From contig CBDFLE010000004.1 in assembly GCA_965248925.1 (NCBI GenBank), positions 128,001 to 192,000 of the forward strand: a DNA stretch of 64,000 bases. The letters run 5' to 3'. Below, in pieces: positions 19,412 through 64,000 of the stretch. Positions within the stretch are counted from its first letter, which is position 1, and every line of letters begins with the position of its first letter. The notes beneath the pieces are model-generated. The model worked only from the letters and a program-made list of their open reading frames with translations. It was not told the origin of the DNA and ran no database searches. Origin of the DNA: Candidatus Multivoradales bacterium (lineage in GTDB: Bacteria; Acidobacteriota; Thermoanaerobaculia; Multivoradales; J023). The translations under genes and the position numbers were made by a program.

Positions 19412-22400
19412 ATGTCGAAACAGCTCTTGCTGCGCTTTCTCCTCATCCTCCAGGTCTTTCTCGGGGTTCTTCTACTGTCGGCGAGCGCCGCTCAGGCGGC
19501 GCCGGTCTTTGTCTCGGTAACCCCCGTCGACGGCACTCTGTCGAGCGCCGCGTCGGTGACTCTGACGGTCGAGGTGCAGGGCGCGATTAGCTTGCAAGTG
19601 GATGGCCAAGCGGTCACCACGGTTGATCCCTCGGGGACGGTGTGGACCGCCGGTCCTTACTCGTTGAGCGAGGGGGAGCGGGTGTTGGTGTTGATCGCCG
19701 AGGACGCTTCTGGGGTGCAGGCTCAGCAGCTGCACCGGGTGGTGCGGGACTCGCTGCCGCCGGTGCTGAGCTTGAGCCAGCCGGCGGCGGGGGCGATCGT
19801 TGCCAGCTCGCCGCTCATCGTGGTCGGCACGGCGGTGGATGCGCATCTGGCGGCGGTGCGGGTGGGGGGCCAGGTGGCGGCTCTCAGTGGTGCGAGTTTT
19901 TCGCACTCTCTGGTCTTGGTGGAGGGCGAGCAGACGTTCACCGTGGAGGCGAGCGACAGCCTGGGGCAGAGCGGGCAGCAGAGTGTGACGGTGACTCTCG
20001 ATAGCCAGCCGCCGACGGTGGCGCTGTTGGAAGGAGCTCAGCCGTTGGCGGCGGATGCGCTGTTCAATCGCTCGGTGGTGCTGAGCTTCAGCGTCACGGA
20101 TGCGACGGCTACGACGGTCGAAGCGCTGCTCGACGGCGCTTCATTCACCTCCGGCACGACGGTGAGCGCGGCGGGTTCGCATGTGCTTTCAGTGACCGCC
20201 ACGGACGCGGCTGGCCAGCCGACTAGCGTCAGCCGGAGCTTTGAGATCGACCTGACGGCGCCGACTTTTCTCAGCTTCACGCCGAGCGATGGCACCCTCT
20301 TGGCAGACTCGCAGGTGACCCTCAGCGGGGTGGTGGAGGGTGCGGCCGCGCTGAGTGTCGAGGGACAGGCGGCGAGCCTGGTGGGGCAGTCGTGGACGGC
20401 CGGGGCATTGCAGCTGATCGAGGGGGAGCGGGAGATTTCTATCGTCGCTACTGATCTGGCGGGCAATAGCGCCTCGTTCACCTTGCATTTGGAGCGCGAC
20501 GCGAGGGCGCCGCAGCTGATCGGCCTGGTGCCCAGTGTGGACACGGTTCTGGCGACCTCGCCGGTGGCCGTAAGCGGTACCGCCAGTGATGCCCACTTGC
20601 TGGAGGTGCGGGTGGGGGGCGAGCTGGCGAGCTTGACCGGCTCGCAGTTCAGCCACCCGGCGGTGGCGCTGGTGGAGGGTGAGAATCTCCTGCCGATCGT
20701 GGCCACGGATCAGGTGGGCCATCAGGCGACGGCCGAGCTGCGGCTGGTGCTCGACACCCAAGCACCGACGCTGTCGCTGCTGGTGGCGGGAGTGCCGCTG
20801 CAGGGTGGGGCGGTGTTCGCCGGCCCGGTGACGCCTGAGATCTCGGCCAGCGACGCCACCGAGGTGGTGACGTCGGCGACTCTCGACGGCGCCACCTACC
20901 TGCCGGGGACGGTGATTGATGGCGATGGCTTGCATCAGCTGTCGGTGAGCGCCAGCGACGCGGCGGGCCATCAGGCGACGGTGCTGGTGAGCTTCAGCCT
21001 CGACCTGGCGGCGCCGGTGTTCGCGGATCTGGCGCCGGTGGCTGGCAGTGTGGACAGCGCTGCTCAGGTGACGCTGACCGGCCGCGCGCCGGGGGCGGTG
21101 TCGGTGTCGGTGGACGGGCAAGCGGCGACGCTGGCGGGGGATGGCTTTAGCGCCGGTCCCTTCAATTTGAGCGAGGGGGAGCGGGTGTTCTTGCTCGCCG
21201 CCACCGATAGCGGCGGCAACGTCACCCAGCTGACCCACCACCTGACTCGCGATTCGACGGCGCCGCAGCTCACTCTCGGCCAGCCGGCGGCCGGAGCCCT
21301 GCTGGGGAGTACCTCGGTCGATGTCAGCGGCACGGCGAGTGATCCGCGTCTCGATCAGGTGACGGTCAATGGGGTGCTGGCCGAGCTCAGTGGCGGCGCT
21401 TTCCTGGCCCGTCAGGTGCCGCTTACTGAAGGTGACAATGTGCTCACCGTGGTGGCGGCGGACACGGTGGGCAACGAGGTCCAAACGACCCGCTCGGTGA
21501 CCGTTGATACGACGCCGCCGACGGTCGTCATCACCGACCCGGCCAGCGGCACGATCACCCCCGAGGCGGGGCTGACCCTGTCGGGCAGCGCCGCGGATCC
21601 TCATCTCGACCGGGTCGAGGTGGCGGGGGTGGGGGCGAGCCTGGTGGGTGAGCAATGGTCGTTGGCGGTGGATCTGCAAGAGGGCAGTAACACTTTCACC
21701 GTCGAAGCCTTCGACCCGCTCGGCCACAGCACCAGCGCCAGCGTCACGGTGACTCGCGACAGCTCGGCGCCTGAGATCCACATCGAGAGCCCGGCCGAGG
21801 GGCTTTACAGCCCAGCAGCGAATCTCACGGTCAGCGGCACGGTGGTCGCGGAGCCCGATTTGACAGTGACGGTGGGCGGCGTGGCGGCGACGATTGCGGG
21901 CAGCAGCTGGAGCGCCGCCGCGGTGCCGCTAGTAGAGGGTGAGAACCGGCTGATCGCAAGGGTGACCGACGCCCTGGGCAACCAAGGCACTCACACGCGG
22001 GTGGTGTGGCGCGACAACCAAGCGCCGGAGTTTCTATCGTCGATCCCCGCCGCGGGGGCTCTCGAGCTGCCGGCCGGCAGCAGCTTCCGGCTGCGCTTCA
22101 GCGAGCCGTTGGCGGCGCCCAGCGGGGGCGCCTACAGCCTCAGCACCTTGGCCGGGCAAGCCCTGGCGAGCAGCGCCGAGATCGATGGCGACGACTTGGT
22201 GATCACCCCGCAGGCAGCACTGCCGTCGGCCACCGAGCTGCGCCTGGTGCTAGGGGCGGGGCTGGTCGATCGGGCGGGCAATGCTCTAGCGGCGGCTCAT
22301 ACTCTGGCTTTCACCGTGGTCGATGGCGGCGCGCCAGCGGCGCCGCAGCTCGACGCCTACGCTAGCTATCTCTGTGCGCCGGCTACCACCCTTGCCGGCG

Positions 22401-34561: not shown

Positions 34562-35028
34562 TTCTTCCGTTATCAGGCACTGGTTCGATTGAGCTTGTAG
34601 AACAGTGGGTTGATGGTAAAGAGAGAAGACCGCAGCGGTCAACTTACTTTGACTCCCATAGATTTAGAGACTGTGTCCTTTGGTCGGTTTCAGTGCGTTG
34701 CATTGATAGTGAAGTGCGACTGGGGAGTGCAAGTAGAGGTTCTTGGGTTTCTGCGTTCCGGTCCTTCGCGTCGAGCATCAATGCTCTGAAATTTAAGTTT
34801 GAGAAGTTTCTGGGGGAGAACGTCTACTTGTTACTATACCTACACGATGAGTGTGGGCCTTTCGCGAATCTCTATGTCGTTGAATACGGTCGGCGGCAGA
34901 TTGAACTTGGGTGGCAGGTTGGCACAGGTAAAATCGAGAGGAGCGGCATCGAGATTGATCGCGCATTGGTTGAAACTTGGCCGAGTCTTCTTCGAGTGTC
35001 CCGTCCGCCGCGTCCACAATCAGATTAG
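34546..35028 (+). CDS. Putative cytoplasmic immunity protein for toxin 1
   Basis: 160-aa, lower-GC ORF overlapping the RHS stop by 16 nt; no signal peptide. Its last codons (VSRPPRPQSD*) come from the boundary repeat and module DNA. Confidence 0.65.
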   Translation: MASSVVLPLSGTGSIELVEQWVDGKERRPQRSTYFDSHRFRDCVLWSVSVRCIDSEVRLGSASRGSWVSAFRSFASSINALKFKFEKFLGENVYLLLYLHDECGPFANLYVVEYGRRQIELGWQVGTGKIERSGIEIDRALVETWPSLLRVSRPPRPQSD

Positions 35029-35206
35029 TAGCCAAACGGCCACTTTACTGGTCGCCGGCCCTCATTGATGGACCCGCTCCTTGTCGCTCCTCCTCAGCTC
35101 ACGCCGAGTCAGGAAATCCATGGAAACTTGCGGTGTCCCGTCCGCCGCGTCCACAGCCAAAATTTGTCCCGTCCGCCACGTCCACATGTCCCGTCCGCCG
35201 CGTCCA
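34997..35206 (+). repeat. Four direct copies of 20-mer TGTCCCGTCCGCC(G/A)CGTCCA
   Basis: Copies at 34997-35016, 35134-35153, 35165-35184 (1 mismatch) and 35187-35206. Confidence 0.9.
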
Positions 35207-35217
35207 CGAACAGAATA

Positions 35218-37111: not shown

Positions 37112-37180
37112 AGGGAATCCAGACCTCCTGACCTACCCCTCCTAACCCTCTGAAAACACAGGACCGCCCCTCAGAGGTGG

Positions 37181-56900: not shown

Positions 56901-57073
56901 ATTGGAAAAGCGATGCTGTTTTTGACGATGCAACGTCACGGCAAAACGATTCTTTGAAGTGGTTAGTCGGCCAACTGCGAAGGGTCTATGGTGTTGAGAA
57001 GATGTATGTTTACCGCCACCCGAGCATTGCGCGAAAGAATGCGGGCGAATCACAATCACTGGTGTGGGAGTAG
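41936..57073 (+). CDS. Giant RHS polymorphic toxin 2 with C-terminal N-acetylmuramoyl-L-alanine amidase (Amidase_2-like)
   Basis: Same N-terminal ~3440 aa as RHS 1. RNRYLDPEMGRFISMDPMG...DPLGL at ~56281. Tip has VVHQT, AHFLI..NGKIVQ, AFHVG, NADSIGIE and YRHP motifs. Confidence 0.92.
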   Translation: MPKQPSLRFLLILQVSLGVLLLSASAAQAAPVFVSVTPVDGTLSSAASVTLTIEVQAAASLQVDGQAVTTVDPSGTVWTAGPYSLSEGERVFVLIAEDASGVQAQQLHRVVRDSLPPVLSLSQPAAGAIVASSPLIVVGTAVDAHLAAVRVGGQVAALSGASFSHSLVLVEGEQTFTVEASDSLGQSGQQSVTVTLDSQPPTVALLEGAQPLAADALFNRSVVLSFSVTDATATTVEALLDGASFTSGTTVSAAGSHVFSVTATDAAGQPTSVSRSFEIDLTAPSFLSFTPSDGTLLADSQVTLSGVVEGAAALSVEGQAASLVGQSWTAGALQLIEGEREISILATDLAGNSASFTLHLERDATAPQLIGLVPSLDTVLATSPVAVSGTASDAHLLEVRVGGELASLTGSQFSHPAVVLVEGENLLPIVATDQVGHQATAELRLVLDTQAPTLSLLVAGVPLQGGAVFAGPVTPEISASDATEVVTSATLDGATYLPGTVIDGDGLHQLSVSASDAAGHQATVLVSFSLDLAAPVFADLAPVDGSVDSGAQVTLTGRAPGAVSVSVDGQAATLAGDGFSAGPFNLSEGERVFLLAATDSGGNVTQLTHHLTRDSTAPQLTLGQPAAGALLGSTSVDVSGTASDPRLDQVTVNGVLAELSGGAFLARQVPLIEGDNVLTVVAADTVGNEVQTTRSVTVDTTPPTVVITDPASGTITPEAGLTLSGSAADPHLDRVEVAGVGASLAGGQWSLAVDLQEGSNTFTVEAFDPLGHSTSASVTVTRDSSAPEIHIESPAEGLYSPAANLTVSGTVVAEPDLTVTVGGVAATVAGSSWSAAAVPLVEGENRLIARVTDALGNQGTHTRVVWRDNQAPEFLSSIPAAGALELPAGSSFRLRFSEPLAAPSGGAYSLSTLAGQALASSAEIDGDDLVITPQAALPSATELRLVLGAGLVDRAGNALAAAHTLAFTVVDGGSPAAPQLDAYASYLCAPATTLAGSAEPGAWIEVDGGASVGAGQVADDGRFAISVVLLPEGPNHLTVIAVDAAGNPSPATSADIVHDCTAPEVLGASREAAGFRIALSETVDPLSLSGSVRVYDGGMEIAGTESATASELIWTASGALPAVALLVEVEGALADLAGNPLAFPYRQLFDIALGGSFFSGTAIDDASGRPLAGVRAVVTASDGVALAEPWPEQTSGEDGRLVIALPAGTHDVTFARPGYTPVFRVVTTVDGQGTDVFDPRLTPAAAAVSIDASGGLVEGSSEVGTAPRLTLPLAGLASAAAVRLTAVGGQGLAALLPYGWAPRGAVWVDLSAVNLDSSATLDLPVTSADGTVLEAVTLDLATLQWRSLGVVTVSGGEVTMTVDGEGAWAAVEADSGALAPPPAVAGQMLGSSAAPPSGGVTSASLSFDPEVVLPTQRSWVQVLYGLAAEVPSGVPLTLSIEERLELLDGSVRRISPYSADLVLYRDSLGDPTSRFRLRPSAAARSLPVRLGAEQVSVRSYGDETVRGNVLGPDGGVVSSAEGDQVVLPTGALEEPTAVTLSRRTVADLPLAPPAGGTVDGVLELDLAGRRLLLPAELSWSLTPAPAAGTPGLLLGVVEVEGEPRYRAIAELEATATGWRTQAIDAADLAWPGVLEGGLYVFLRLDAAPRFVRGMVLDPGGAPVVGAVVESTTVPWLQISAAEGGYVLPILLDAATLSARRAVTGNAVAVALPAGVAAERVDLDLPLQIVAPWVEQITPSAGTSGVLLGVNPVVRFSEPVDRASLDGAIELRQGGVAVAVALDHQGALVTLLPQATLVPGSEYEVWVGAAVRDLQGYGLSGSVSVLFSTEVVATPAGVDRGRIFLVEPDAQGLARVEGVAGAAPAGTLVFVENLTSFSTTESVQSAGDGSFLLTIGASLEDQLLLHVLIDGGNEVVILLTPFLGADLRTGLAGTGAGEFTTADGITVRYSAGTFAGPSRVKVTPIAMGTLAAAEDFSELVTFRLEIAGAQPLKPLEVTMAAPAGTAPAGTAAGSLWLLRRQLEIADLPWMVHAELALDGGELSTIHTVGEAQSANSGEVGGTKSGTFDVPAPLRVLSPAEAAARLPRSGFLSALPPADPAALVEVEPPLAGLGAAKATVAPTLADYLVGVSRPGVYQAARAEVELGWIAFPFRGAQDLVVRSAELPEVVLALDAVNRSFLPLGAGALPVELSPTPLNADPAAPGTKAPPAGEPKADSVEIQVLDFAGVELYRLVVDAPTQQLVLLTPSQLPNAGPPMPLGGGPLRFHAFSAAPGTSEIAAGISAELEGNSLTVRGEAGSAGAGVAVRLIDLESSNVLSATASPGGSFSVVASPSQLGDQLVLAISAKLTPGQPLRLDFSEALQEEAPGIRVEHDGMALPITKEPLGSWAQLRIHGGWQAGKTYNLRLDSTMADAAGLPWDANMTLPFEVAESSAGTSFALDEAHDIARLGSLLFVAAGADGLAVLDASDPRQLKNWLAAETYVDLVAEPGLPVRGVATDSHGRVVAVGGGVARRGVLLILDPQELPQGAATVPAAAILGRTLLTEPQLAGSGAPPLLIGRPLEVEIFNRDQSTTWTLGEAVPPGLTLAPPSPPSGTAAVSLTVSGMATAERPVTLRNLTTGERDSARVGSAGGGGAGSFSLSLSVQRGDRLELLRNELSLAYVAGYDAGVVTVDLNAVEAADEEVDDPWDAFDLLRYNTHYFVPTEVLCSTFENDQRFDVIDARVLPAASEGEPWSVLALVENYGLLSLGASVATPLEKLAYRDALCGEVDGNRKLGGLDVLPGYRFDRNGDGVLDDTEPERDYALLTNTVGGGGRGWLLIVDVTERDELRRVGRIELPGPATRVTADAIGRRALVSGLGGGVYIVDLDRWPELGGGGGTPQIWSSDRVVERLSFGEDVRAPTLVAPELGLAFAGGVARGVTPLSTGLPRLSLVTSGKKGLRRVARLAPFGAPSAPESAEEGAEEIPGLIRVQAQLPGGLADAEGKIRVDLAGIGPAGLPLRGLGEGLMDEPVAELKDDKALVLQRQSDNPLSEGYNVFLSDPVVLLADVRASAHFERSEAEKKVCRRCDLVDEGVYTAADLPPNELHVELLSGHQVRASYSAAFATSLAGLYDADLLAGYAVVADSVPWDLSPSPHQEPVLNAATSAMAAPGTLLHSGEMTRQAIDLSLQGRGLDLALVRTYRSQTISNGPLGPGWDHGYRLRLRLLPNGDIDFFDGTGRRETFTLEDDGKLMPPVGRFVQLKKYAEGYTLIGSGYQRWRFDRWGRLVSMIDSVRTSEETGNEITFHYDAHSRLARIHDDLDRNTFLHYDDEGRLEKIVDFSDRDFLYHYDAQGRLTSFETPVVDLGSGSSQRLSTTYAYHAAGTGLAGQLSQRDDLKSETDAKSQTWLTLRYQDSDGNGRPDALKEQDWGAETVHLAFDFDGQQTTLTDRRGKVWTYHLNAAGQATSLVDPKSANGSWQYDGEGLLTRATRPLGGATQIEYPADTSGDRRGRGDAQRMVKIADGRGPNGSPSELVTTWEYHSPTHQPSRKTEPGGAVTVWERTDNGLPEQIVRAAGAAEQSITGLSYNAHGQLLEATNPNGHVTRHSYFTSGSEEGYLKQTEVDPGGLSLVTIYERNDRGQLEAITDPRGVRHETELNRLDWPLAQVAAASTSGFLAPLGYRTTWRYDANGDISEVSSPFGDGSTTTIEVRTYGVLGELLSAEREVAPGGRRIVETSTYDPNLNLLTHVDGAGQRVEREYDERGQLSLVRRGLGTGALATPIVEHQSYDLDGHLSSQRDGRGMTWEAERDGHGRVLRSRSPLGHYREQRYNPAGDLAALLAYDAGGQLLVESAFAYDLLHRRTETTAWRWTPDPQQPDPSRTAEKTHHRWDAASNLLEVEDPLGRLTRTSYDAAERPERVELPEGNVRRTTYDSGGLPITEHADEVDPAGGSHTITYQSTFDALGRRLSRQDGIFANRTLWTLDARGQVTLEIDPTGRFTRRSYDGLNRMTREVRPEGISVDYSWDDASRLTTYTDARGQATRWEYDGVGRRTKVVYPDQQQERWVYDPTNNVTERHDPRGLVVHQSWDEAGRLQSRTVTQSPGGAVEGPMVEAFSFDGLDRLIRAQSGSVVTERVYNSLSHLASETNAGRTTSWQRNALGEPTRTSYPSGRQVERTFDNLGRVSTVGESGAPASIASYGYRGPAIARKDLGNGLQGNMSFDGLRRMVDNNFSLAGESATFQESLAWSPRSLKTGQSRGDLGGAGRVFAYDGAQRLIESARVPPALAQRPGNTPPDVALLASLPERTSYQHDNAMNLIRSTTTQRGIEQITDLPPDNRNRPSAFGGVALEWDAAGNMKRKGDMQMYYDLHNRLTRVTRSGVEVAKYHYDAFNRRVKIQTPVYSEESVWDGWQSMETYRNGVLASRRVYGNGIDEILQHEVDLNGDGTVEQTYYPITDSTGNVAMLTSSNGKPIERYFYSPYGERRVLVDLTAPSNHQLLIDTSGMLRIELSEEVSIEELESGLADGRIKLERVSDGSQIPLTLDLPVQGGPLARRRLVLAPATPPAAGEQVRFQVAPSALLDTFHNSAVSGIDHTWAWSATPSVLQDTAPPRVSEVVVRSGVVEIVFTEEVDPAAAAAIVQLDGQPASWTLADDRYTVIATTALSAGSHTLDIGTAALDLAGTGLAQPFSLDLEIGAAANPQSANLTAKSPAGAKAESGDSFVAYQDVDLLFSDTSAVGNVYGFHGRPLDRETGLLYFRNRYLDPEMGRFISMDPMGYVDGPSGYQFAGSSPGDGRDPLGLCVGRLRETGFCKGVNDLLTGYGPVVNDNAVLKEYETVRREAIRVVDGLVFSPRVGHQIYPNLHHGSMSSVVGLVVHQTTAATATSTYNTYSSPERTVGAHFLIERNGKIVQTALVNQQAFHVGTMKSKCLDEFEACAVAVGPFVALSAALDIAEFLQSLAMENHSPRALSAYEKKKSFPFRYPSNADSIGIEAVGATRDPATGAYPYWKSDAVFDDATSRQNDSLKWLVGQLRRVYGVEKMYVYRHPSIARKNAGESQSLVWE

Positions 57074-57075
57074 AG

Positions 57076-57537
57076 ATGCCTAGTCGCCCTGTCAATACGC
57101 TTGGACACTTATTCGTCACCGCCTTCCTGTTTCTAGGTCTAGGCGGAAATCCTATGGATGTCGAGAAGGAGAACGAGCCGTCTCGCTTTGTAGATGTGTA
57201 CGGGCGGAAGTTCACTATAGAAATCCAGGAGCTTAAAGGGGACTTCGAGGAAAGGGTTTGTCAGCAGTTTCATCTGGAAGCTAAAGATGTGAAGTTTTTT
57301 TTCGACAATGCTGTATTAGTTGACGGTTACACTCTAGAGAAGGAGTATCCATGGTACCCCTGTGGTTTGAACGGGAAAATAACCATTGGCGAGCAAATCT
57401 TCGAGTGGGAGATTACGCCCGGGGGCAAGGGTGTGCTAGAGCCTATTTCTGGAGCTGAAGAGTCAGTCTGCCTAGTGTGTGATCTAGGCTGTGAGGATGT
57501 TTTTCCGCATGGTGGGAATATGTTCAGGGGCGAATAG
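57076..57537 (+). CDS. Putative exported immunity protein for the amidase toxin
   Basis: ATG 2 nt after the toxin stop, behind GGGAG. Hydrophobic N-terminus (HLFVTAFLFLGLGG), several Cys, low GC. Confidence 0.75.
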   Translation: MPSRPVNTLGHLFVTAFLFLGLGGNPMDVEKENEPSRFVDVYGRKFTIEIQELKGDFEERVCQQFHLEAKDVKFFFDNAVLVDGYTLEKEYPWYPCGLNGKITIGEQIFEWEITPGGKGVLEPISGAEESVCLVCDLGCEDVFPHGGNMFRGE

Positions 57538-57541
57538 GGTC

Positions 57542-57577
57542 TGTCCCGTCCGCCGCGTTGTCCCGTCCGCCGCGTCC
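57542..57577 (+). repeat. Two tandem copies of the TGTCCCGTCCGCCGCGT(CC) boundary repeat
   Basis: 57542-57558 and 57559-57577, beginning 4 nt after the immunity stop codon. Confidence 0.9.
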
Positions 57578-57785
57578 GCGATCAAAATCGTAGCCAAACG
57601 GCCACTTTATTGGTCGCCTTCCTTCGTTGATGGACCCGCTCCTTGTCGCTCCTCTTCAGCTCACGCCGAGAATTTCCCAGACCGACGGCGATCTTCGCTA
57701 GCTGCCGAGAATCCGAGGCGCCTGAGCGAGCCTCACCGTGGACAGCGCGTCGCAGCAGCCCATCAACTCGCCAGCCTGAGCCGCT

Positions 57786-58700
57786 CTACTTGGGCGCATA
57801 GAAGCCAGAGAGCACTCCTTGCCAGGCGGTCATGAATCGTAGGTGCCCCCGTGAGGGCTTGCGGCCGGTCCAGACCTCGGCCGGTGTGCAGCCGTCGAGG
57901 TTCTGATGCGGGCGCAGTTCGTTATACCAAAACCGGAAGACATCCAACTGTCGCTGGGTCTTGTGGCCCGCTGGCAGCGGCTCGCGCCGCCGCCGCAGGC
58001 GCTCTTTGAAGGTGCCGAAGAAGCGCTCGATACGTCCGTTCTGCCACGGCGAGGCCAGCTGGGTGCGCTGGTGGCGAATACCCAGTATGGCCAGCGAAAG
58101 CCGGAAGATCCAAGATGTAAAGACTGGCTCGTTGTCAGTGCGCAAGCACTTTGGCTTGCCGCATAGCTCGATCGTGTCGAGCAGCTGGCGCACCAGTTCG
58201 ACCGATGCTTTGGTCTTCACTGCTTGAAGGCTCAAGCAGAGCCGAGTGCCGTGGTCGAGCAGGCCGAAGATGGTTTCTTTCTGGCCGGCGGTGTTATCAG
58301 CGTAGGTGAGATCGGCGGCCCAGATCAGCCGCTTGCCGCCGATCCCAGGTTTTCTCCTGCGGATCTTCCGGCGCCAAGCGAGAATCTCCAGCTGGTGCTC
58401 GTTGAAGATCTTTGCAACGTAGCTCTTGCCCACCGTCATTCGGCGATGGCGGTAGTTGCGATTGAAGGCTGCCGCGATCGCCCTACAGCCATCGTCGGGC
58501 TGCAACGCCTTGAGCCGGATCACCGCTTGGCGCACCCACTTGGGCTTGCGCCGGCAGAAGCCGCGATAAGTCGTTGGGTCGGGTGGACACTTGGCTCGGC
58601 GGCGGTGCTTCGCCCTGGGTTGCAGGGCGAGCGAAGTGAGCGCAAGAATCAGAAGCAACACGAACGCCCAGAGCAGGACGCCGGCAAGGTCGGAAGTCAT
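57786..58700 (-). CDS. rve/DDE integrase-core protein with hydrophobic N-terminus, copy 2
   Basis: 304 aa, 7 visible substitutions versus copy 1, DDE intact. Confidence 0.85.
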   Translation of the reverse strand: MTSDLAGVLLWAFVLLLILALTSLALQPRAKHRRRAKCPPDPTTYRGFCRRKPKWVRQAVIRLKALQPDDGCRAIAAAFNRNYRHRRMTVGKSYVAKIFNEHQLEILAWRRKIRRRKPGIGGKRLIWAADLTYADNTAGQKETIFGLLDHGTRLCLSLQAVKTKASVELVRQLLDTIELCGKPKCLRTDNEPVFTSWIFRLSLAILGIRHQRTQLASPWQNGRIERFFGTFKERLRRRREPLPAGHKTQRQLDVFRFWYNELRPHQNLDGCTPAEVWTGRKPSRGHLRFMTAWQGVLSGFYAPK

Positions 58701-58750: not shown

Positions 58751-59218
58751 TCACGTATCACCTCCCGAATGCCAGAAGCCCGGCTTGTGCAGCTCCAGCA
58801 CGAAGTCCACCTCGGCGGCCCTCCTCTCGTAGTCACGCCGCTCCTTCGCCGCCGCGATCCTGGCGGCGATCTCGCTGGCCAGGTGCTCTCCCTTGCCGGG
58901 TCGCGTCGGCAAGGCTTCCCTGGCCACGTCACGGAGGACTTGCTCCACCAGCGCCCGGTCCTTCTTCTTCGGGTCACAAGCGTGGTTGAGAAACCACAGG
59001 ATCAGCGCCGCGGGCTCGAGGAATCGGTGGTTGACCGCGGCCAGGAAGGCCGCGGTCAGCTCTTCGATCGGTGCGCTGGCAGAAAGCTTAATCTCAGCCA
59101 GGCTGTCGATGCTGGAATGATTGAGTCGCTGGTTGGCGCCGGTGATCTGAGCGGCGATCTGGCGTACTGTCTGGAGGATCTGTTCGGTGGTCATAGGCTT
59201 TCTGGACAGAGTGGCCAT
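58751..59218 (-). CDS. Hypothetical helical protein (155 aa), copy 2
   Basis: Paralogue of 36379..36846 with AGGAGG RBS. Confidence 0.75.
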   Translation of the reverse strand: MATLSRKPMTTEQILQTVRQIAAQITGANQRLNHSSIDSLAEIKLSASAPIEELTAAFLAAVNHRFLEPAALILWFLNHACDPKKKDRALVEQVLRDVAREALPTRPGKGEHLASEIAARIAAAKERRDYERRAAEVDFVLELHKPGFWHSGGDT

Positions 59219-59240: not shown

Positions 59241-59486
59241 CTATTGTTGGCGGATATTGACGCCGAAGCCGATGGCCATGGTTTCGATGGCTTGGGCCAG
59301 GGCGATGTGTTGCTCGGTGAGTTCGGCCTCCGGCGTGGCGGGCAGCTTGAGGGTCAGCAAAGTGCCTCGTAGATGAACTTCTTTGAGGTCACGGTTCAAG
59401 AAAAAGCACCCTCCGGGCAGAAGGGGCTGATTCTGCCCGGAGGGGTGGAGTCGCCGTGGTTGGGGAGGGACCACCACGGCCATCAC
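59241..59486 (-). CDS. Small hypothetical protein (81 aa), copy 2
   Basis: Paralogue of 36872..37111; overlaps the tail of the PCD-like ORF. Confidence 0.5.
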   Translation of the reverse strand: MMAVVVPPQPRRLHPSGQNQPLLPGGCFFLNRDLKEVHLRGTLLTLKLPATPEAELTEQHIALAQAIETMAIGFGVNIRQQ

Positions 59487-59754
59487 AGGGACTCAGGGAG
59501 CGAGCGAGGTCGAAATCTTCCGGCCGCAGACGGGCCGGTGCCACCGGCCCGATCCGTACCGAGACCCAGCGGCCGACCATCGCGGCTCTGGGTTCTAGGT
59601 TGGTGAGTTCACCGCGATAAAACACCCACTCGACGAAGATCAGGGAATCGCGCCAAGAGTCAAAGAGGTATTTGCGGGTGATCTTTTGTTGCCCTTTGAT
59701 TTGTCGCCAATCGGGTAGGGTGTTTAGGGCCTGTTGGATCTCTTCATCGGTCAT
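59389..59754 (-). CDS. PCD/DCoH-like protein, copy 2 (uninterrupted)
   Basis: Start MTDEEIQQ behind AAGGAG matches copy 1; 2 substitutions in the shared 89 aa. Confidence 0.7.
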   Translation of the reverse strand: MTDEEIQQALNTLPDWRQIKGQQKITRKYLFDSWRDSLIFVEWVFYRGELTNLEPRAAMVGRWVSVRIGPVAPARLRPEDFDLARSLSPCDGRGGPSPTTATPPLRAESAPSARRVLFLEP

Positions 59755-60028
59755 CACTCTCTCCTTGGGTCTAGGAGGATGGTAAAGCCAACAGATTTGA
59801 TCTGTGCAAATGATCTGGGCTGCGCCATATCCTGGAGCTGTGCATCTTGGACCTCCGCCTCCGAGGTCCATTCAGGAGTCAAAGAACCCGATATTGGACT
59901 CTGAGTGCACACTGGTTTGACATGGCTGCGCACTCTCGTGCAGCTTTGATGTTTTTCGTTCCAAGATTTCGGGGCGAGTCCAACGATGCGCTATACTTTG
60001 CCCCTGACCCAACTATCTGGAGGAGAGC

Positions 60029-61360
60029 ATGTCAGAAGTTCTATATCTATCCGACCATCAGCGGCTCCTAACTACACTGAGAACGCATGTGCGGCGGCAT
60101 CCGAGGTCACTTCAGGCTATCGAGAGGCGCCTCGGGTGGTCGCGTTCCTATCTGTCTCGCAAGCTTGGCGGTGCAATTTCCCTTTCTACGGAGCAGCTGC
60201 TTGAGATTCTTAAGATCGTTGATTTGAATCTGAGCGAGCTAGAAGCGAAGGCATCCTGGGTTGATGTCGAGGGCCTCCTTGAGGGTCTGCTGCCTGAAGG
60301 AAGTCGAAATCCAGCTCCGATTGTGGAGTTGCGACGAGTAGCTCGGGAGCTGGCGGAACGGGACGGGGTCATAGGCGAGAACATCGAAGTTGCTGAACCT
60401 CACTTGTCGACTCTGCTAGCTGTCGATCGGTTACGATTCTCTCATCCGTGGCCTGCTGCGAGACAAGCCTTCGCCGTGGCGGCCCATGTGGCTCCTGCGA
60501 TCAATGGAGACGAAGCAAAGGAAATATTCTCTCGGGCCGCAGGCGTGTACGCTTCCTGTTGTCGAATGGGCGGTTCGCCAGAAGACGGAGTCCGCGCCAT
60601 CCTTGTTGCCTTGTCCGCAGCGGGTTCGTCAAACCCGCAACTTCGAGCCTCGCTCATGGAGCGCGCTGCCTATCTGCTGATTTCTTTCGCTCAGAACCTC
60701 AATGCGATTGCGGTATTTGATTTGGCGGATTCGATCAATATTGGAACTGGTGATCGATCTTGCCGAGGCCGGCTTGCCGTGGGGCGAGGTGTAGCTTGGC
60801 ATCTGGAGAACGAGTTTCAGTTGTCAGCTACAGAGTTTCTATCGGCTTTGCAGCTTCTCAGTAATTGTGAGCAGGTATTTGCCGGATCGGCTCATCAATG
60901 TCTTGGGCAAGTTAGAATGGATGAAGGGGATCTCATCGGGGCTGCACGAGAAATCGAATTTGCCAGAACGTTGCTAGCCGATGGTGACGTGTATAGCCTA
61001 GGTATTGTAGAATGGACGGCTGCTCGTCTGGCTAGCAAGTGTGGTCAGTCGGAGCAGGCTGAATTGTTGTTTCGAGGAGCTGTCGACAACTTGATGAAGA
61101 TCAATCCGTTCGACACCACTTTGGTCTGTCTAGATTGGGTTAAGTTGCTTCTTGAAAAAGGTGAAGCCGCCGATGCCGTCTTGACAGCCAGGAGAACGGC
61201 TAGGTTAATTGAGCAATTCGAATCGAATCCGATTGCGGGTAGAACTATCCTGGAATTGAAGAAGGCATCTCTGAGGGGGCAGCTGACGTTCAGACTTGTA
61301 GGAGCGGCCCGGATGAGTATCGAGAGTGGGCGCTGCCTAGGCATACGCCCACTCTTTTGA
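60029..61360 (+). CDS. XRE-type HTH + TPR-like regulator, allele 2
   Basis: SLQAIERRLGWSRSYLSRKLGG HTH. Colinear with allele 1 (HVRRHP, HVAP.I.G, SCCR.GGS, INPFDT, SNP.AG, GIRP) but strongly diverged. GGAGG RBS. Confidence 0.8.
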   Translation: MSEVLYLSDHQRLLTTLRTHVRRHPRSLQAIERRLGWSRSYLSRKLGGAISLSTEQLLEILKIVDLNLSELEAKASWVDVEGLLEGLLPEGSRNPAPIVELRRVARELAERDGVIGENIEVAEPHLSTLLAVDRLRFSHPWPAARQAFAVAAHVAPAINGDEAKEIFSRAAGVYASCCRMGGSPEDGVRAILVALSAAGSSNPQLRASLMERAAYLLISFAQNLNAIAVFDLADSINIGTGDRSCRGRLAVGRGVAWHLENEFQLSATEFLSALQLLSNCEQVFAGSAHQCLGQVRMDEGDLIGAAREIEFARTLLADGDVYSLGIVEWTAARLASKCGQSEQAELLFRGAVDNLMKINPFDTTLVCLDWVKLLLEKGEAADAVLTARRTARLIEQFESNPIAGRTILELKKASLRGQLTFRLVGAARMSIESGRCLGIRPLF

Positions 61361-61463: not shown

Positions 61464-64000
61464 TTGATCCTCCGGGTTCGTGATTTAGGCAACCCTACCC
61501 TGGAGATCTTCAACCGCGACCAGAGCACGACTTGGACGCTGGGGGAAGCGGTGCCGCCGGGCCTCACCCTGGCTCCGCCCAGCCCACCGAGCGGCACGGC
61601 GGCTGTCTCGCTCACCGTCAGTGGCATGGCGACGGCGGAGCGTCCGGTGACTCTGCGCAACCTCACCACCGGCGAGCGCGACAGCGCTCGCGTCGGCAGT
61701 CCTGGTGGCGGCGGTGCTGGCAGTTTCTCCCTGAGTCTCAGCGTGCGGCGCGGCGACCGCCTGGAGCTACTGCGCAACGAGCTGTCCTTGGCCTACGTGG
61801 CGGGTTACGACGCCGGGGTGGTGACGGTGGATCTGAACGCCGTCGAAGCGGTCGATGAGGAAGTCGACGATCCCTGGGATGCCTTCGATCTGCTGCGCTA
61901 CAACACTCACTATTTTGTACCGACCGAGGTGCTGTGCTCGACGTTTGAGAACGATCAGCGCTTCGACGTGATCGACGCGCGGGTGCTGCCGGCGGCGTCG
62001 GAGGGCGAGCCTTGGAGCGTGCTGGCCCTGGTCGAGAATTATGGCTTGCTGTCGCTGGGTGCCTCGGTCGCTGCGCCGCTCGACAAGCTGGCCTACCGCG
62101 ACGCTCTGTGCGGCGAGGTCGATGACAACCGCAAGATGGGGGGTCTCGATGTGCTGCCCGGCTACCGCTTCGATCGCAACGGCGACGGTGTGCTGGACGA
62201 CGAGGACCCCGAGCGTGACTTCGCGCTGCTCACCAACACCGTTGGTGGCGGGGGTCTTGGCTGGCTGCTGATTGTCGATGTCACCGAGCGCGATGAGCTG
62301 CTTCTTGTGGGCCGCATCGAGCTGCCCGGCCCGGCGACGCGGGTGACCGCTGACCCGGTCGGCCGCCGCGCCCTGGTGTCGGGCCACGGTGGTGGGGTCT
62401 ACATCGTCGACCTCGACCGCTGGCCCGAGCTGGGTGGAGGGGGCGGAACCCCTCAGATCTGGTCGAGCGATCGGGTGGTCGAGCGCCTGAGCTTTGGCGA
62501 GGACGTGCGCGCCCCCACCCTGGTGGCTCCAGAACTGGGCCTGGCCTTCGCCGGTGGCGTTGCCCGCGGCGTGACCCCCCTCAGCACCGGCCTGCCACGC
62601 CTGTCGCTGGTGACTAGCGGCAAAAAGGGACTGCGCCGGGTCGCCCGGTTGGCGCCATTTGGCGCGCCTAGCGCGCCGGAGAGCGCCGAGGAAGGTGCCG
62701 AAGAAATACCCGGCGTGATCCGCGTGCAGGCGCAGCTTCCTGGTGGCCTGGCCGATGCCGAGGGCAAGATCCGTGTCGACCTCGCGGGCATCGGCCCCGC
62801 CGGTTTGCCGGTGCGCGGCCTCGGCGAGGGGCTGATGGACGAGCCCATGGCCGAGCTGAAAGACGATAAGGCGCTGGTGCTACAACGGCAGTCGGACAAC
62901 CCCCTGTCAGAGGGCTACAACGTCTTCCTCTCCGACCCGGTGGTGCTGCTGGCTGACGTGCGCGCCTCGGCGCATTTCGAGCGCTCGGAGGCTGAGAAGA
63001 AGGTCTGCCGCCGCTGCGACCTGGTGGACGAGGGGGTCTACACCGCGGCCGATCTACCTCCCAACGAGCTGCATGTCGAGCTGCTGTCGGGTCATCAAGT
63101 GCGGGCGAGCTACAGCGCCGCCGTCGCCTCCAGCCTCACCGGCCTCTACGATGCCGACCTGCTAGCGGGCTACGCCGTCGTCGCCGATAGCGTGCCCTGG
63201 GATCTCAGCCCCTCGCCGCACCAGGAGCCGGCGCTCAATGCCGCCACTAGCGCGATGGCGGCGCCGGGCACCCTCCTGCACTCAGGAGAGATGACCCGCC
63301 AGGCGATCGACCTCAGCCTCCAAGGCCGGGGTTTAGATGTGGCCTTGGTGCGCACCTACCGCAGCCAAACGATCAGCAACGGCCCCCTCGGCCCGGGCTG
63401 GGATCATGGCTACCGCCTGCGCTTGCGGCTCTTGCCCAATGGCGATATCGACTTCTTCGACGGCACTGGCCGCCGCGAGACCTTCACCTTGGAAGACGAC
63501 CGCGAGCTGAAGCCGCCCGTCGGCCGCTTCGTCCAGCTCAAGAAGTACGCCGAGGGCTACACCCTGATCGGCAGCGGCTACCAGCGCTGGCGTTTCGACC
63601 GCTGGGGTCGCCTGGTGTCGATGATCGACTCGGTGCGCACCAGCGAAGAGACCGGCAACGAGATCACCTTCCACTACGACTCCCACTCGCGCCTGGCGCG
63701 GATCCACGACGATCTCGGCCGCAACACCCTCCTGCACTACGACGACGAAGGCCGTCTGGAGAAGATCGAAGACTTCAGCGATCGCGACTTCCTCTACCAC
63801 TACGACGCCCAGGGAAGATTGACCAGTTTCGAGACTCCAGACGTCGACCTAGGCAGCGGCAGCAGCCAGCGCCTGTCGACCACCTACGCCTACCATCCCC
63901 TTGGCACCGGCCTGGCTGGCCAGCTCACCCAGCGCGATGATCTGAAAAGCGAGACCGACGCCAAGAGCCAGACCTGGCTCACCCTGCGGTATCAGGACTC
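61464..64000 (+). CDS. Third RHS copy, N-terminally truncated (orphan-type), continues beyond window
   Basis: Homology to RHS 1/2 starts at ~61503 (EIFNRDQSTTW), about 2560 codons into the full gene. Frame appears open to the window end. Possible TTG start at 61464 behind GAGGG; no signal peptide. Confidence 0.8.
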   Translation, partial: MILRVRDLGNPTLEIFNRDQSTTWTLGEAVPPGLTLAPPSPPSGTAAVSLTVSGMATAERPVTLRNLTTGERDSARVGSPGGGGAGSFSLSLSVRRGDRLELLRNELSLAYVAGYDAGVVTVDLNAVEAVDEEVDDPWDAFDLLRYNTHYFVPTEVLCSTFENDQRFDVIDARVLPAASEGEPWSVLALVENYGLLSLGASVAAPLDKLAYRDALCGEVDDNRKMGGLDVLPGYRFDRNGDGVLDDEDPERDFALLTNTVGGGGLGWLLIVDVTERDELLLVGRIELPGPATRVTADPVGRRALVSGHGGGVYIVDLDRWPELGGGGGTPQIWSSDRVVERLSFGEDVRAPTLVAPELGLAFAGGVARGVTPLSTGLPRLSLVTSGKKGLRRVARLAPFGAPSAPESAEEGAEEIPGVIRVQAQLPGGLADAEGKIRVDLAGIGPAGLPVRGLGEGLMDEPMAELKDDKALVLQRQSDNPLSEGYNVFLSDPVVLLADVRASAHFERSEAEKKVCRRCDLVDEGVYTAADLPPNELHVELLSGHQVRASYSAAVASSLTGLYDADLLAGYAVVADSVPWDLSPSPHQEPALNAATSAMAAPGTLLHSGEMTRQAIDLSLQGRGLDVALVRTYRSQTISNGPLGPGWDHGYRLRLRLLPNGDIDFFDGTGRRETFTLEDDRELKPPVGRFVQLKKYAEGYTLIGSGYQRWRFDRWGRLVSMIDSVRTSEETGNEITFHYDSHSRLARIHDDLGRNTLLHYDDEGRLEKIEDFSDRDFLYHYDAQGRLTSFETPDVDLGSGSSQRLSTTYAYHPLGTGLAGQLTQRDDLKSETDAKSQTWLTLRYQD

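What the first reader, a model, noticed from the sequence alone, without database searches (positions are those of the whole stretch)
19412..64000. Tandem array of giant RHS toxin cassettes, each coupled to an integrase / PCD-like / HTH-TPR module
Seen: the order [RHS-toxin][immunity][TGTCCCG repeat][rve <- 155 aa <- 80 aa <- PCD-like][HTH-TPR ->][next RHS] occurs twice, and a third RHS begins. The four-gene leftward operon and the RHS 5' region are nearly identical between units. The rear RHS, toxin, immunity gene, regulator and its promoter region all differ. Known: typical rhs/cdi loci carry short orphan tip-immunity modules without a dedicated recombinase or regulator per module. Inference: this is a self-propagating or self-diversifying toxin array whose ~22.5-kb unit (34997 to 57541) is bounded by direct repeats and carries its own DDE enzyme and allele-specific regulator. 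I do not recognise this as a described system.
Basis: partly seen in the sequence, partly recalled or inferred. Interest (0 to 1): 0.88.

Follow-up and report, generated by a model that had tools for sequence, protein, structure and literature searches.

The report
Rhs toxin array punctuated by one-ended transposase
The window is part of a huge array of giant Rhs bacterial-warfare toxin genes, and each unit ends with a transposase-like element whose relatives sit beside toxin cassettes in many bacterial phyla, so it may explain how such toxin arsenals are assembled.

Summary
The repeat is real and far larger than reported. The window shows 3 of at least 13 Rhs units spread over about 200 kb on two contig ends. 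The units carry 11 distinct toxin tips, each with its own putative immunity gene.

- Unit 1 holds an unrelated 2.5-kb IS.
- The "80 aa" gene is a deletion remnant.
- The third Rhs is a 5'-truncated, signal-less orphan.
- Regulator class follows long versus short Rhs form, not the tip.

Main result: the 304-aa rve protein belongs to a cross-phylum family.
- The outer DNA terminus (…GGACGGGACA) is conserved in 57 of 73 loci.
- No inverted repeat was found.
- An Rhs or CdiA-type gene lies convergent just downstream in 29 of 61 loci, and never on the rve strand.
- Stacked truncated termini, and a terminus joined inside an immunity gene of a 99.6% duplicate, show the end is a breakage-joining site.

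Best reading (about 0.55): a toxin-locus-specialised DDE element reshapes, and perhaps moves, cassettes in an IS26-like way. Mobility was not observed. Most Rhs clusters in this genome lack the element.

The parts
5194..19377 (+). Giant 4,727-aa Ig-like / carboxypeptidase-regulatory-repeat surface protein gene, 20 bp upstream of the first Rhs. It has no RHS repeats. It is context marking the array start.
   Evidence: ORF. Pfam CarboxypepD_reg, Big_5 and Big_7. Its last 1,597 aa recur at 99.9% identity before another full-length Rhs on contig C5.
19397..34561 (+). Full-length Rhs toxin gene 1 (5,054 aa). It has a Sec-type signal peptide, about 2,500 aa of Ig-like repeats, DUF6531, an RHS/YD shell of class A, and a 301-aa tip of unknown family.
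   Evidence: signal peptide read from the translation; DPxGL core end; tip has no Pfam hit.
34546..35028 (+). Immunity candidate 1 (160 aa). It overlaps the toxin stop by 16 nt and has no relative among the other units.
   Evidence: (no Pfam hit). The function is inferred from position.
34997..35207 (+). Stack of four outer termini of the rve element (starts 34997, 35134, 35165, 35187). Three are truncated on their inner side. The last runs on into the element.
35187..36328 (-). rve element copy 1. The terminus is at 35187 and the 304-aa DDE protein is encoded at 35414-36328.
   Evidence: Pfam rve_3, rve and DDE_Tnp_IS240. 98% aa identity to copy 2.
36379..36846 (-). 155-aa protein of unknown function, upstream of rve on the same strand. 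It is lineage-specific.
   Evidence: pN/pS is 0.29 in this frame against 0.69 in the opposite-strand frame. Only 4 database relatives. No Pfam or NCBIfam hit above cut-off.
36872..37111 (-). Remnant (79 aa) of a second PCD-like gene. The intact form is 101 aa in other units.
   Evidence: the intact copy gives Pterin_4a at E 1.4e-4, below cut-off.
37120..39647 (+). Unrelated 2,528-bp insertion sequence (797-aa Transposase_29 protein) with inverted ends. It is inserted between the PCD-like remnant and the PCD-like gene.
   Evidence: (more than 30 copies at about 99.7%).
39608..39913 (-). PCD-like (Pterin_4a) gene, copy 1. Its 3' end is altered by the IS insertion.
   Evidence: E 8.2e-11.
40197..41534 (+). 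HTH(XRE)-TPR regulator, class I (445 aa). It precedes a full-length Rhs.
41936..57073 (+). Full-length Rhs toxin gene 2 (5,045 aa). Its N-terminal 3,456 aa are the same as gene 1 (96% nt). The YD shell is class B (36% aa identity to gene 1). The tip is an Amidase_2 peptidoglycan amidase.
57064..57537 (+). Immunity candidate 2 (157 aa). It overlaps the toxin stop by 10 nt and has a hydrophobic N-terminus.
   Evidence: (no Pfam hit).
57542..57579 (+). Two outer termini: a 17-nt fragment, then the full terminus at 57559, 5 nt after the immunity stop codon.
57559..58700 (-). rve element copy 2. It has a subterminal terminator-like hairpin at 57605-57590 and the 304-aa DDE protein at 57786-58700.
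58751..59218 (-). 155-aa protein, copy 2.
59241..59486 (-). Remnant of the second PCD-like gene, copy 2.
59389..59871 (-). PCD-like gene, copy 2 (Pterin_4a domain at residues 40-126 of the ORF). A 14-pair terminator-like hairpin follows at 59444-59409.
60029..61360 (+). HTH-TPR regulator, class II (443 aa). It is 100% identical in three units and precedes short Rhs forms.
61464..64000 (+). 5'-truncated Rhs (2,492 aa in the genome; it runs off the window). It starts at the equivalent of nt 7723 of the full gene, has no signal peptide, and keeps DUF6531 and the YD shell.

Best explanation
WHAT IT IS (shown)
The window is a piece of a super-array of paralogous giant Rhs polymorphic toxins. The host is probably an acidobacterium of the class Thermoanaerobaculia.
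- The array has at least 13 Rhs ORFs on two contig ends.
- They carry 12 tips, 11 of them distinct. The recognisable tips are peptidoglycan amidase and TseH-like hydrolase.
- Each tip is followed by a unique overlapping immunity candidate.
- Every unit is closed by one copy of an rve (DDE) element, transcribed towards the toxin. Its outer terminus, 5'-TGTCCCGTCC..., abuts the immunity gene.
- The element belongs to a cross-phylum family of single-ORF, ~300-aa integrase-core proteins. The family has a hydrophobic N-terminus, one conserved terminus and no inverted repeat.
- Family members lie at the 3' boundary of Rhs and of CdiA (two-partner-secretion) toxin/immunity cassettes.

HOW IT WORKS (inferred)
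- The array grew by duplication and homologous recombination of units. This gave mosaic Rhs genes with a fixed breakpoint at nt 10368 and two YD-shell classes.
- The element's DDE enzyme cuts exactly at the terminus and joins it to nearby DNA, preferentially inside another copy's end.
- This creates adjacent deletions and the stacked termini.
- By analogy with IS26 translocatable units, it may also create circles of one element plus one toxin/immunity cassette. Such circles could re-enter next to another terminus, or by homologous recombination in the toxin core. That would add or displace cassettes.

The 155-aa, PCD-like and HTH-TPR genes are additions specific to this lineage. The HTH-TPR proteins probably regulate each Rhs gene.
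For: ARRAY
- map the units.
- 12 tips, 11 distinct, each with a private next ORF. YD cores fall in two classes, 36-39% identical between classes and 77-100% within.
- Amidase_2 in 2 tips and TseH-like in 1.
- a signal peptide on the full-length form.

ELEMENT UNDER SELECTION
- 9 intact 304-aa copies, 89-100% aa identity, pN/pS 0.21.
- D130, D189 and E225 are among the 32 invariant columns in 22 family members.
- The integrase catalytic-core fold is matched in the PDB at E 4e-11.

ELEMENT RESTRICTED TO TOXIN LOCI
- In its own genome, all strong matches lie in Rhs arrays. This includes a second, 25%-identical Rhs family.
- By contrast, the Transposase_29 IS is scattered over more than 30 sites.
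- In same-family and same-order genomes, 9 of 14 places have Rhs pieces beside the rve, always on the opposite strand. Four of the 5 without are loci of 3.2 kb or less.
- In 80 loci from named genomes of 6 phyla: convergent Rhs, CdiA or TPS genes lie within 6 kb downstream in 29 of 61 loci with enough flank. They lie upstream in 9 of 62. They are on the rve strand in 0 of 80.
- A complete Nitrincola chromosome has at least 5 tandem [rve][terminus][small ORF][CdiA fragment] units.
- Only 1 of 72,556 plasmids holds a relative.
- Close rve relatives sit beside different toxin types. At least 8 Rhs/CdiA switches occur on the tree among the rows labelled Rhs or CdiA.

TERMINUS
- GGACGGGACA (up to 1 mismatch) is found in 57 of 73 loci, at a median of 233 nt after the stop codon. 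The control rate is 0.025 per 330 nt.
- Homology stops exactly at the terminus.

BREAKAGE-JOINING FOOTPRINTS
- Stacks of termini truncated on the inner side, in the window, in the genome (fragments of 14-45 nt, and about 517 nt by the coordinates), in Nitrincola and in 9 of 50 other loci.
- In a 9,692-nt duplicate at 99.64% identity, one copy has the terminus joined within the immunity ORF.
Against: - No second end. An inverted copy of the terminus was sought within 500 nt upstream of rve in 53 loci. The mean score was 14.98 against 15.03 for shuffles, and 2 loci exceeded their 50 shuffles. No conserved upstream sequence was seen. The mobile unit therefore cannot be delimited.
- No excised circle, junction read or copy-number variant was seen. 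Only short-read contigs of one sample were available.
- Element copies in the array differ by 5-12% in DNA, much like the Rhs 5' regions (4-5%). Most copies were therefore spread by duplication of whole units, not by recent transposition.
- About 17 of about 21 Rhs clusters of this genome have no family rve, including a tandem pair at C5:1.24-1.26 Mb. Tandem Rhs genes arise without it.
- 32 of 61 loci elsewhere showed no recognisable toxin gene within 6 kb downstream. Some showed housekeeping genes such as Lon.
- The loci are not phylogenetically independent.
- Short tandem terminus repeats (8 nt x 4 in Nitrincola) could also arise by slippage.
Confidence: 0.55

Rival explanations
1. Passive passenger. 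The rve gene is an ordinary, mostly decaying insertion sequence that landed once beside an Rhs gene. It was then copied along as the Rhs units duplicated by homologous recombination. Toxin loci tolerate such insertions, so the element accumulates there without any role in cassette dynamics.
For: - The copies are as diverged as the surrounding unit.
- Tandem Rhs pairs exist without the element.
- The array also collected an unrelated IS, an IS3-type element and a primase/tyrosine-integrase island.
- The literature treats intervening transposases as signs of horizontal transfer (PMC4927057, passages).
Against: - 9 copies stay intact with pN/pS 0.21.
- The same family sits at the same position and in the same orientation next to two unrelated toxin types in several phyla: 0 of 80 same-strand and 29 of 61 convergent downstream. 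There are at least 8 switches of toxin type on the tree.
- It is almost absent from plasmids.
- The precise terminus junctions include one younger than a 99.64% duplicate.
- It has no inverted repeats, unlike an ordinary IS.
Confidence: 0.28
2. Domesticated recombinase. The rve protein is no longer a transposase. It is a host-retained, possibly membrane-tethered, site-specific factor that acts on the terminus sequence to regulate or switch toxin/immunity expression. It would not move DNA between sites.
For: - Purifying selection acts on many copies.
- There is a single conserved site and no second end.
- The hydrophobic N-terminus is conserved in 86 of 107 family members. This is unusual for transposases.
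Against: - Stacked truncated termini and the terminus joined inside an immunity gene are DNA rearrangements, not regulation.
- There are many copies per genome rather than one.
- The family shows partial and frameshifted copies typical of mobile DNA.
Confidence: 0.1
3. Assembly artefact. The tandem structure is a mis-join of strain variants of one Rhs locus.
For: - The array lies at two contig ends.
- Short-read contigs break at every repeat.
- All runs found come from one sample, which may be the source of the assembly.
Against: - Units differ in long unique segments: tips, immunity ORFs, regulators, two YD-shell classes, IS and island insertions. All are joined in one 285-kb and one 2.36-Mb contig.
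- Unique junctions such as tip-immunity-first terminus (33811-35094) are each covered by a single contig in all four runs.
- The same architecture is present in a complete Nitrincola chromosome and in other genomes.
Confidence: 0.04

Closest known systems
Orphan rhs-CT / cdiA-CT-immunity module arrays (Poole et al. 2011, PMC3150448, abstract and term search; Ruhe et al. 2016, PMC4927057, passages)
   Same: - Polymorphic toxin genes are followed by 5'-truncated toxin fragments with cognate immunity genes in the same orientation.
- The arrays have intervening transposase or integrase genes.
- New tips are thought to displace old ones by recombination.
   Different: - Here most units are complete 15-kb genes with their own regulator, and the orphans are about 2,500 aa long.
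- The intervening gene is one specific rve family. It has a conserved terminus, a fixed convergent orientation, and is shared by Rhs and CdiA loci across phyla.
- In the passages I read, these papers state this association only in general terms.
- Their supplementary tables, which I could not open, may name the transposase families.
IS26 (IS6 family) pseudo-compound transposons and translocatable units (as summarised in PMC6350997)
   Same: - Directly oriented copies of a DDE element alternate with cargo segments.
- There is a proposed circle of one element plus adjacent cargo.
- Reactions are targeted to an existing copy's end.
- Pfam DDE_Tnp_IS240 gives a marginal hit (27.5 bits, cut-off 27).
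   Different: - IS26 has 14-bp terminal inverted repeats (recalled) and carries resistance genes on plasmids.
- This family shows no inverted repeat and is nearly absent from plasmids.
- Its best NCBIfam match is IS481, below cut-off.
- Its termini are found truncated and stacked.
IS2-like composite transposon / 'megacircle' carrying bcpAIOB in Burkholderia thailandensis (Ocasio and Cotter 2019, PMC6350997, abstract and passages)
   Same: - A DDE (IS3-superfamily) element mobilises a CDI toxin locus as a circle holding one IS copy.
- The circle re-inserts next to an existing copy.
- This is experimental precedent for the mechanism proposed here.
   Different: - That element is a standard two-ORF IS2-like IS. 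It has inverted repeats and six copies, some of them outside toxin loci.
- Its cargo is 210 kb, not single cassettes.
- It has no conserved single terminus and no cross-phylum toxin association.
IS481 / IS3 family insertion sequences
   Same: - An rve catalytic core with the DDE triad.
- The terminus begins 5'-TG (typical of these families, recalled).
- These are the best NCBIfam models.
   Different: - Scores are far below the curated cut-offs: IS481 108.9 against 224, IS3 95 against 160.
- There are no inverted repeats.
- There is no OrfA/OrfB frameshift arrangement.
- A hydrophobic N-terminal segment is present.
One-ended mobilisation by ISEcp1-type elements, and integron cassette arrays (both recalled, not tested)
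   Same: - A single well-defined end next to variable cargo.
- Arrays of promoter-less cassettes, each closed by a conserved site beside one recombinase.
   Different: - ISEcp1 is an IS1380-family element with two recognisable ends.
- Integrons use a tyrosine recombinase and folded attC sites.
- Here the enzyme is DDE, and most cassettes carry their own enzyme copy.

Membership tests
Rhs/YD-repeat polymorphic toxin | RHS/YD repeats forming the shell | tested here: met
   Pfam RHS_repeat at E 6e-66 in 27002-34561. It is also found in 54002-57073 and 61464-63998.
Rhs/YD-repeat polymorphic toxin | Conserved core-end motif (DPxGL, recalled) followed by a variable C-terminal toxin tip | tested here: met
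   The regex finds the motif at residues 4730 and 4753 of gene 1 and 4777 of gene 2, leaving tips of 301 and 268 aa. The motif was absent from the rear core of 1 of the 12 tip-bearing Rhs ORFs (C4:218976). DNA homology between paralogues ends at nt 14217 or 14708. The 12 tips fall in 11 unrelated or weakly related groups.
Rhs/YD-repeat polymorphic toxin | Cognate immunity gene immediately downstream | tested here: inconclusive
   A private small ORF overlaps the toxin stop codon in the two window units, and a private next ORF follows 11 of the 12 tips. None has a Pfam hit. Protection was not tested.
Rhs/YD-repeat polymorphic toxin | Delivery route (T6SS PAAR/VgrG, or Sec-dependent surface display) | tested here: inconclusive
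   A Sec-type signal peptide and Ig-like repeats are seen on the full-length genes. No PAAR or VgrG domain was seen in the Pfam hits. The secretion system was not identified.
Orphan toxin/immunity module | 5'-truncated toxin gene lacking the secretion signal but keeping tip and immunity gene | tested here: met
   The third window Rhs starts at nt 7723 of the full gene and has no signal peptide. The genome holds 6 truncated forms.
IS481 / IS3 family transposase | Score above the curated family cut-off | tested here: not met
   NCBIfam: IS481 108.9 bits (cut-off 224); IS3 95 bits (cut-off 160).
IS481 / IS3 family transposase | DDE catalytic triad in an rve fold | tested here: met
   Pfam rve_3 and rve. 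D130, D189 and E225 are invariant in 22 sequences. PDB integrase cores are matched at E 4e-11.
Classical insertion sequence (any DDE family) | Terminal inverted repeats at both ends | tested here: not met
   The 21-mer is found only in direct orientation in the genome: 27 hits, all on the + strand. In 53 loci, the best local alignment of the inverted terminus upstream of rve equals the shuffled controls.
Classical insertion sequence (any DDE family) | Target-site duplication flanking the element | tested here: inconclusive
   The left end is undefined, so this cannot be assessed.
IS26-like translocatable unit / pseudo-compound transposon | Directly oriented element copies alternating with cargo | tested here: met
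   All array copies have the same orientation. The same holds in Nitrincola and in G009:C126.
IS26-like translocatable unit / pseudo-compound transposon | Circular intermediate of one element plus cargo; targeted conservative integration | not testable with these tools
   Only assembled short-read contigs of one sample were available.
Integron | Tyrosine recombinase IntI and attC-bounded cassettes | tested here: not met
   The enzyme is a DDE rve protein. The boundary site is a linear terminus with GGAC repeats.

The most novel reading that the evidence does not exclude
The rve proteins and their single conserved terminus define an undescribed class of mobile element specialised on polymorphic-toxin loci. 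It would be a one-ended, possibly membrane-tethered DDE recombinase that packages one toxin-fragment/immunity cassette per element copy. It would insert or delete such cassettes at existing termini. In this way it would build and edit the orphan arrays of both Rhs and CdiA systems across at least six bacterial phyla. In effect it would be a DDE-based counterpart of the integron for interbacterial weapons.
Probability: 0.35. Interest if true: 0.9.

Novelty: new variant of a known kind. Interest (0 to 1): 0.78.

Why it matters
How polymorphic toxin loci acquire new tips and lay down orphan toxin/immunity modules is an open question. The literature I could read speaks only of "intervening transposase and integrase genes" and of homologous recombination.

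This window leads to a concrete, testable candidate: one enzyme family and one conserved DNA end at cassette boundaries of two unrelated toxin delivery systems. Members occur in cultured, non-pathogenic isolates (Nitrincola, Rheinheimera, Limnohabitans, Stenotrophomonas nitritireducens) where genetics is possible.

If the enzyme moves cassettes, it explains the rapid turnover of interbacterial arsenals. It would also add a new kind of one-ended DDE element.

The array itself is an unusually large toxin repertoire for an acidobacterium: at least 13 Rhs genes, 11 tips, about 200 kb.

Tried and rejected
READS
- The four runs that hold the stretch are one sample, stored as assembled contigs.
- The two joints reported (34101->35185; 37113->39648) have only 25-26 letters on the shorter side. 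The second is simply the IS-free form present in paralogous units.
- Summed contig depths were about 12-36 for unique parts, about 100 for rve and 400-570 for the IS. This agrees in rank with the assembly's copy numbers, but the tool warns that depth is not a copy number. None of this is used as evidence.

LEFT END
- A search for an inverted copy of the terminus and inspection of 140 nt upstream of 56 rve starts found nothing conserved.

DISTANCE FROM TERMINUS TO THE NEXT CONVERGENT ORF
- The median is 105 nt with a wide spread.
- The tight abutment seen in the window (5 nt) is therefore not a family rule, and I dropped that idea.

SOLO TERMINI
- The apparent solo termini in L036, L044 and L050 are mostly chance 10-mer matches.
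- Those in L023 and L071 are real terminal fragments.

155-aa PROTEIN
- No informative relatives, no Pfam, NCBIfam or Atlas lead.

EARLIER-FINDINGS INDEX
- Three look-ups, nothing returned.

LITERATURE
- Six full-text searches were run.
- Term searches were run within four papers: PMC6350997, PMC3150448, PMC3482391 and PMC4927057.
- None described this rve family or its terminus.
- ISfinder could not be consulted.

NOT DONE
- I did not test whether the E. coli intervening transposases belong to this family.


Full report
1. WHAT IS IN THE WINDOW

Four giant + strand ORFs dominate:
- 5194-19377 (4,727 aa)
- 19397-34561 (5,054 aa)
- 41936-57073 (5,045 aa)
- 61464 to the window end

The first has only Ig-like and carboxypeptidase-regulatory repeats. 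The other three are Rhs proteins, with DUF6531 plus RHS repeats. The two full-length ones begin with a Sec-type signal peptide and about 2,500 aa of Ig-like domains.

- 19409-29764 matches 41933-52270 at 96.1%.
- 35165-37119 matches 57542-59494 at 94.2%.
- 39648-39943 matches 59489-59784 at 95.3%.

The 21-mer TGTCCCGTCCGCCGCGTCCAC occurs six times, all on the + strand, against 0.01 expected. It bounds a unit of about 22.5 kb.

2. CORRECTIONS TO THE OBSERVATION

- The segment 37120-39647 in unit 1 is an independent 2,528-bp IS. It encodes a 797-aa Transposase_29 protein and has inverted ends. More than 30 copies at about 99.7% identity are scattered over the genome.
- The third Rhs aligns only from nt 7723 of the full gene and has no signal peptide. 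It is a very long orphan.
- The "80 aa" ORF is what a 177-bp deletion left of a 101-aa second PCD-like gene that is intact in other units.
- A 14-pair terminator-like hairpin follows the PCD-like gene, so the four leftward genes are not one operon.
- Of the two overlapping ~155-aa frames, the minus-strand one is the gene. Its pN/pS is 0.29, against 0.69 for the other.

3. THE ARRAY IS MUCH LARGER

In the genome (7.98 Mb, 6 contigs; the window is C4:128001-192000), Rhs and rve units run to the end of C4 and over the first 62 kb of C5. Whether the two contig ends are joined is not shown.

I count 13 Rhs ORFs: 7 long and 6 truncated. They carry 12 tips, of which 11 are distinct. Eleven of the 12 are followed by a private small ORF; the twelfth is the unit whose immunity ORF is cut by the terminus (section 5).
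- Two tips are Amidase_2 peptidoglycan amidases and one is TseH-like. The rest have no Pfam hit.
- The YD shells fall into two classes, 36-39% identical between classes.
- Both classes are fused to the same N-terminal 3,456 aa, with a shared breakpoint at nt 10368. The genes are therefore recombination mosaics.

HTH-TPR regulators form classes:
- Class I (76-82% identical to each other) precedes full-length genes.
- Class II (three copies, 100% identical) precedes short forms.
It is not toxin-allele specificity.

The array also holds an IS3-type element and a primase/tyrosine-integrase island outside the window.

4. THE rve PROTEIN AND ITS DNA END

The 304-aa protein has rve_3 and rve domains. 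It scores far below the curated cut-offs of IS481 and IS3. Nine copies in the genome are intact, 89-100% identical in protein, with pN/pS 0.21.

A database search gave 1,385 proteins at E <= 1e-5 among 4,531 candidates. Typical members are ~300-aa "integrase core domain-containing" proteins. In an alignment of 22:
- A DDE triad is invariant (D130, D189, E225).
- A conserved KPxWV...GCRKIA segment precedes the core.
- The first ~50 residues vary in sequence but are hydrophobic. 86 of 107 members reach a Kyte-Doolittle mean of 1.6 over 17 residues.
- The profile matches retroviral integrase cores in the PDB.

In 80 loci fetched from named genomes, I examined the 73 with at least 330 nt after the rve stop codon.
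- 57 of 73 have GGACGGGACA (up to 1 mismatch), at a median of 233 nt after the stop.
- The control rate in upstream sequence is 0.025 per 330 nt.
- A second GGAC lies 8 nt further in.
- Conservation ends at the last A.

No inverted copy exists.
- In the genome all 27 matches are in direct orientation.
- In 53 loci, the inverted terminus aligns upstream of rve no better than in shuffles (14.98 against 15.03).
- The upstream flanks share nothing.

5. THE TERMINUS IS A BREAKAGE-JOINING SITE

Termini occur in stacks. Each outer copy keeps its outer end and is cut off on the inner side by the next complete terminus.
- In the window the stack starts at 34997, 35134, 35165 and 35187, with a 17-nt fragment at 57542.
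- Elsewhere in the genome the fragments are 14, 31, 41 and 45 nt and about 517 nt (from the coordinates).
- In Nitrincola they are 52 and 175 nt plus four of 8 nt.
- Stacks occur in 9 of 50 other loci.

The clearest event involves C4:187380-197071 and C5:51432-61123. These are 99.64% identical over 9,692 nt. In the C5 copy the sequence switches, inside the immunity ORF, directly into TGTCCCGTCC... The C4 copy continues through the ORF. That junction is younger than the duplication.

An end that attacks nearby DNA, preferentially another copy's end, would give exactly these adjacent deletions. This mechanism is inferred.

6. THE FAMILY LIVES IN POLYMORPHIC-TOXIN LOCI

Own genome:
- All strong rve matches are in Rhs arrays.
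- This includes two degraded copies beside a different Rhs family, only about 25% identical.

Related genomes:
- 27 of the 41 genomes searched (own genome included) have a match at E <= 0.001. Among same-family genomes the figure is 13 of 23.
- Of 14 places examined, 9 have Rhs pieces beside the rve, always on the other strand. Four of the 5 without are loci of 3.2 kb or less.
- One contig carries three [Rhs fragment][small ORF][terminus][rve] units about 4.6 kb apart, with the same terminus motif.

The 80 named loci span six phyla in the tree (Acidobacteriota, Pseudomonadota, Nitrospirota, Campylobacterota, Fibrobacterota, Thermodesulfobacteriota). The closest to the window are Thermoanaerobaculia MAGs.
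- A convergent Rhs, CdiA or TPS gene lies within 6 kb downstream in 29 of 61 loci with enough flank: 17 Rhs and 7 CdiA by phmmer, plus 5 by Pfam. A tblastn-only hit in L083 would make it 30.
- Such genes lie upstream in 9 of 62 loci.
- They lie on the rve strand in 0 of 80.
- A Pfam tally of the largest downstream ORF in 60 loci gave RHS_repeat 12, Fil_haemagg_2 6, RHS 5, DUF637 4 and PT-VENN 2. It also gave housekeeping families such as Lon.

The complete Nitrincola chromosome has at least five tandem units in which the cargo is a CdiA fragment. The domains are Fil_haemagg_2, DUF637 and Tox-REase-7.

On an rve tree, phyla are clustered (6 changes against 15.3 in shuffles). The neighbouring toxin type switches at least 8 times, even between close relatives.

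Only 1 of 72,556 plasmids has a relative. It sits beside a 38.8-kb repeat-protein gene.

7. WHAT SPEAKS AGAINST A CAUSAL ROLE

- The genome has about 21 Rhs clusters, of which about 17 lack the element. I counted these by eye from the coordinates. They include a tandem pair.
- Element copies are about as diverged as their units, so most spread by unit duplication.
- Half of the external loci show no recognisable toxin gene downstream.
- No left end, target duplication, circle or polymorphism was found.
- The other "module" genes are not conserved. The 155-aa protein has only 4 database hits, all own or near-own. None of the 155-aa, PCD-like or HTH-TPR proteins was found in the relatives' loci.

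8. COMPARISON WITH THE LITERATURE

- Ruhe et al. [quoted passage not shown] The general association is therefore known.
- Poole et al. 2011 has no occurrence of "transposase" or "integrase" in its main text.
- Zhang et al. 2012 has no occurrence of "integrase", and its single "transposase" occurrence is unrelated.
- Ocasio and Cotter 2019 (PMC6350997, abstract and passages) show experimentally that an IS2-like element forms an IS26-like circle carrying a CDI locus. That is a mechanistic precedent with a different, ordinary IS.
- My six searches found no description of this family, its single terminus or its dual Rhs/CdiA association.

9. VERDICT

- There is a dedicated-looking DDE element with a recombinogenic terminus at every cassette boundary, and its family tracks polymorphic toxin loci across phyla.
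- Self-propagation of the 22.5-kb unit is not shown.
- The per-unit regulator and small genes are local additions.

I rate it a new variant of a known kind (transposase-punctuated orphan toxin arrays). I give about one chance in three that it represents a distinct class of cassette-mobilising element.

Noticed in passing
window 37120-39647: A 2,528-bp IS encoding a 797-aa Transposase_29 protein, with inverted ends (CCAGACCTCCTGAC...GTCAGGAGTTCTGG). More than 30 copies at about 99.7% identity lie across contigs C5 and C6, which points to a recent burst. Only this one copy lies in the Rhs array.
   Followed up: partly
family alignment A1 and proteins P0001-P0120 (window rve at 57786-58700, minus strand): The rve family has a transmembrane-grade hydrophobic segment followed by a basic stretch in its first ~50 residues. 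86 of 107 members show it, although the sequence there is not conserved. A membrane-tethered transposase would be unusual. This is unexplained.
   Followed up: partly
window 5194-19377 and G000:C5:16044-21020 (L104): A 4,727-aa Ig-like giant protein precedes the first Rhs by 20 bp. A 1,658-aa ORF whose sequence is 99.9% identical to its last 1,597 aa precedes another full-length Rhs on C5. The array start has therefore itself been duplicated recently.
   Followed up: no
G000:C4:254165-259877 (L103 2166-7878): A DnaG-type primase / Toprim gene and a tyrosine (phage-type) integrase sit inside the array. They lie directly after a 17-nt fragment of the rve terminus at C4:253142. An integrative island seems to have landed in or next to an element end.
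   Followed up: no
window 34001-36000, 40001-42000, 56001-58000, 60001-62000: The tip, immunity and regulator segments have 55-57% G+C, against 65-71% in the Rhs bodies. This is compatible with foreign origin or different constraints.
   Followed up: no
L107 (Undibacterium sp. YM2 plasmid pUYM01, 127.7-168.6 kb): This is the only plasmid relative of the rve among 72,556 plasmids. It lies convergent to a hypothetical gene and a 38.8-kb "tandem-95 repeat protein" gene. The family may also accompany other giant secreted proteins.
   Followed up: no
G000 genome-wide: The genome is extremely rich in Rhs genes. There are 133 RHS_repeat matches in about 21 clusters, with three size classes of about 1,600, 3,600 and 5,000 aa. 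Only the two largest classes are accompanied by the rve element.
   Followed up: partly
window 39910-40197 and 41542-41889 (minus strand): Small ORFs of 95 and 115 aa flank the class I HTH-TPR regulator and have no Pfam hit. The 115-aa one recurs (61% identity) before another Rhs on C5. Their reality and role are unknown.
   Followed up: no
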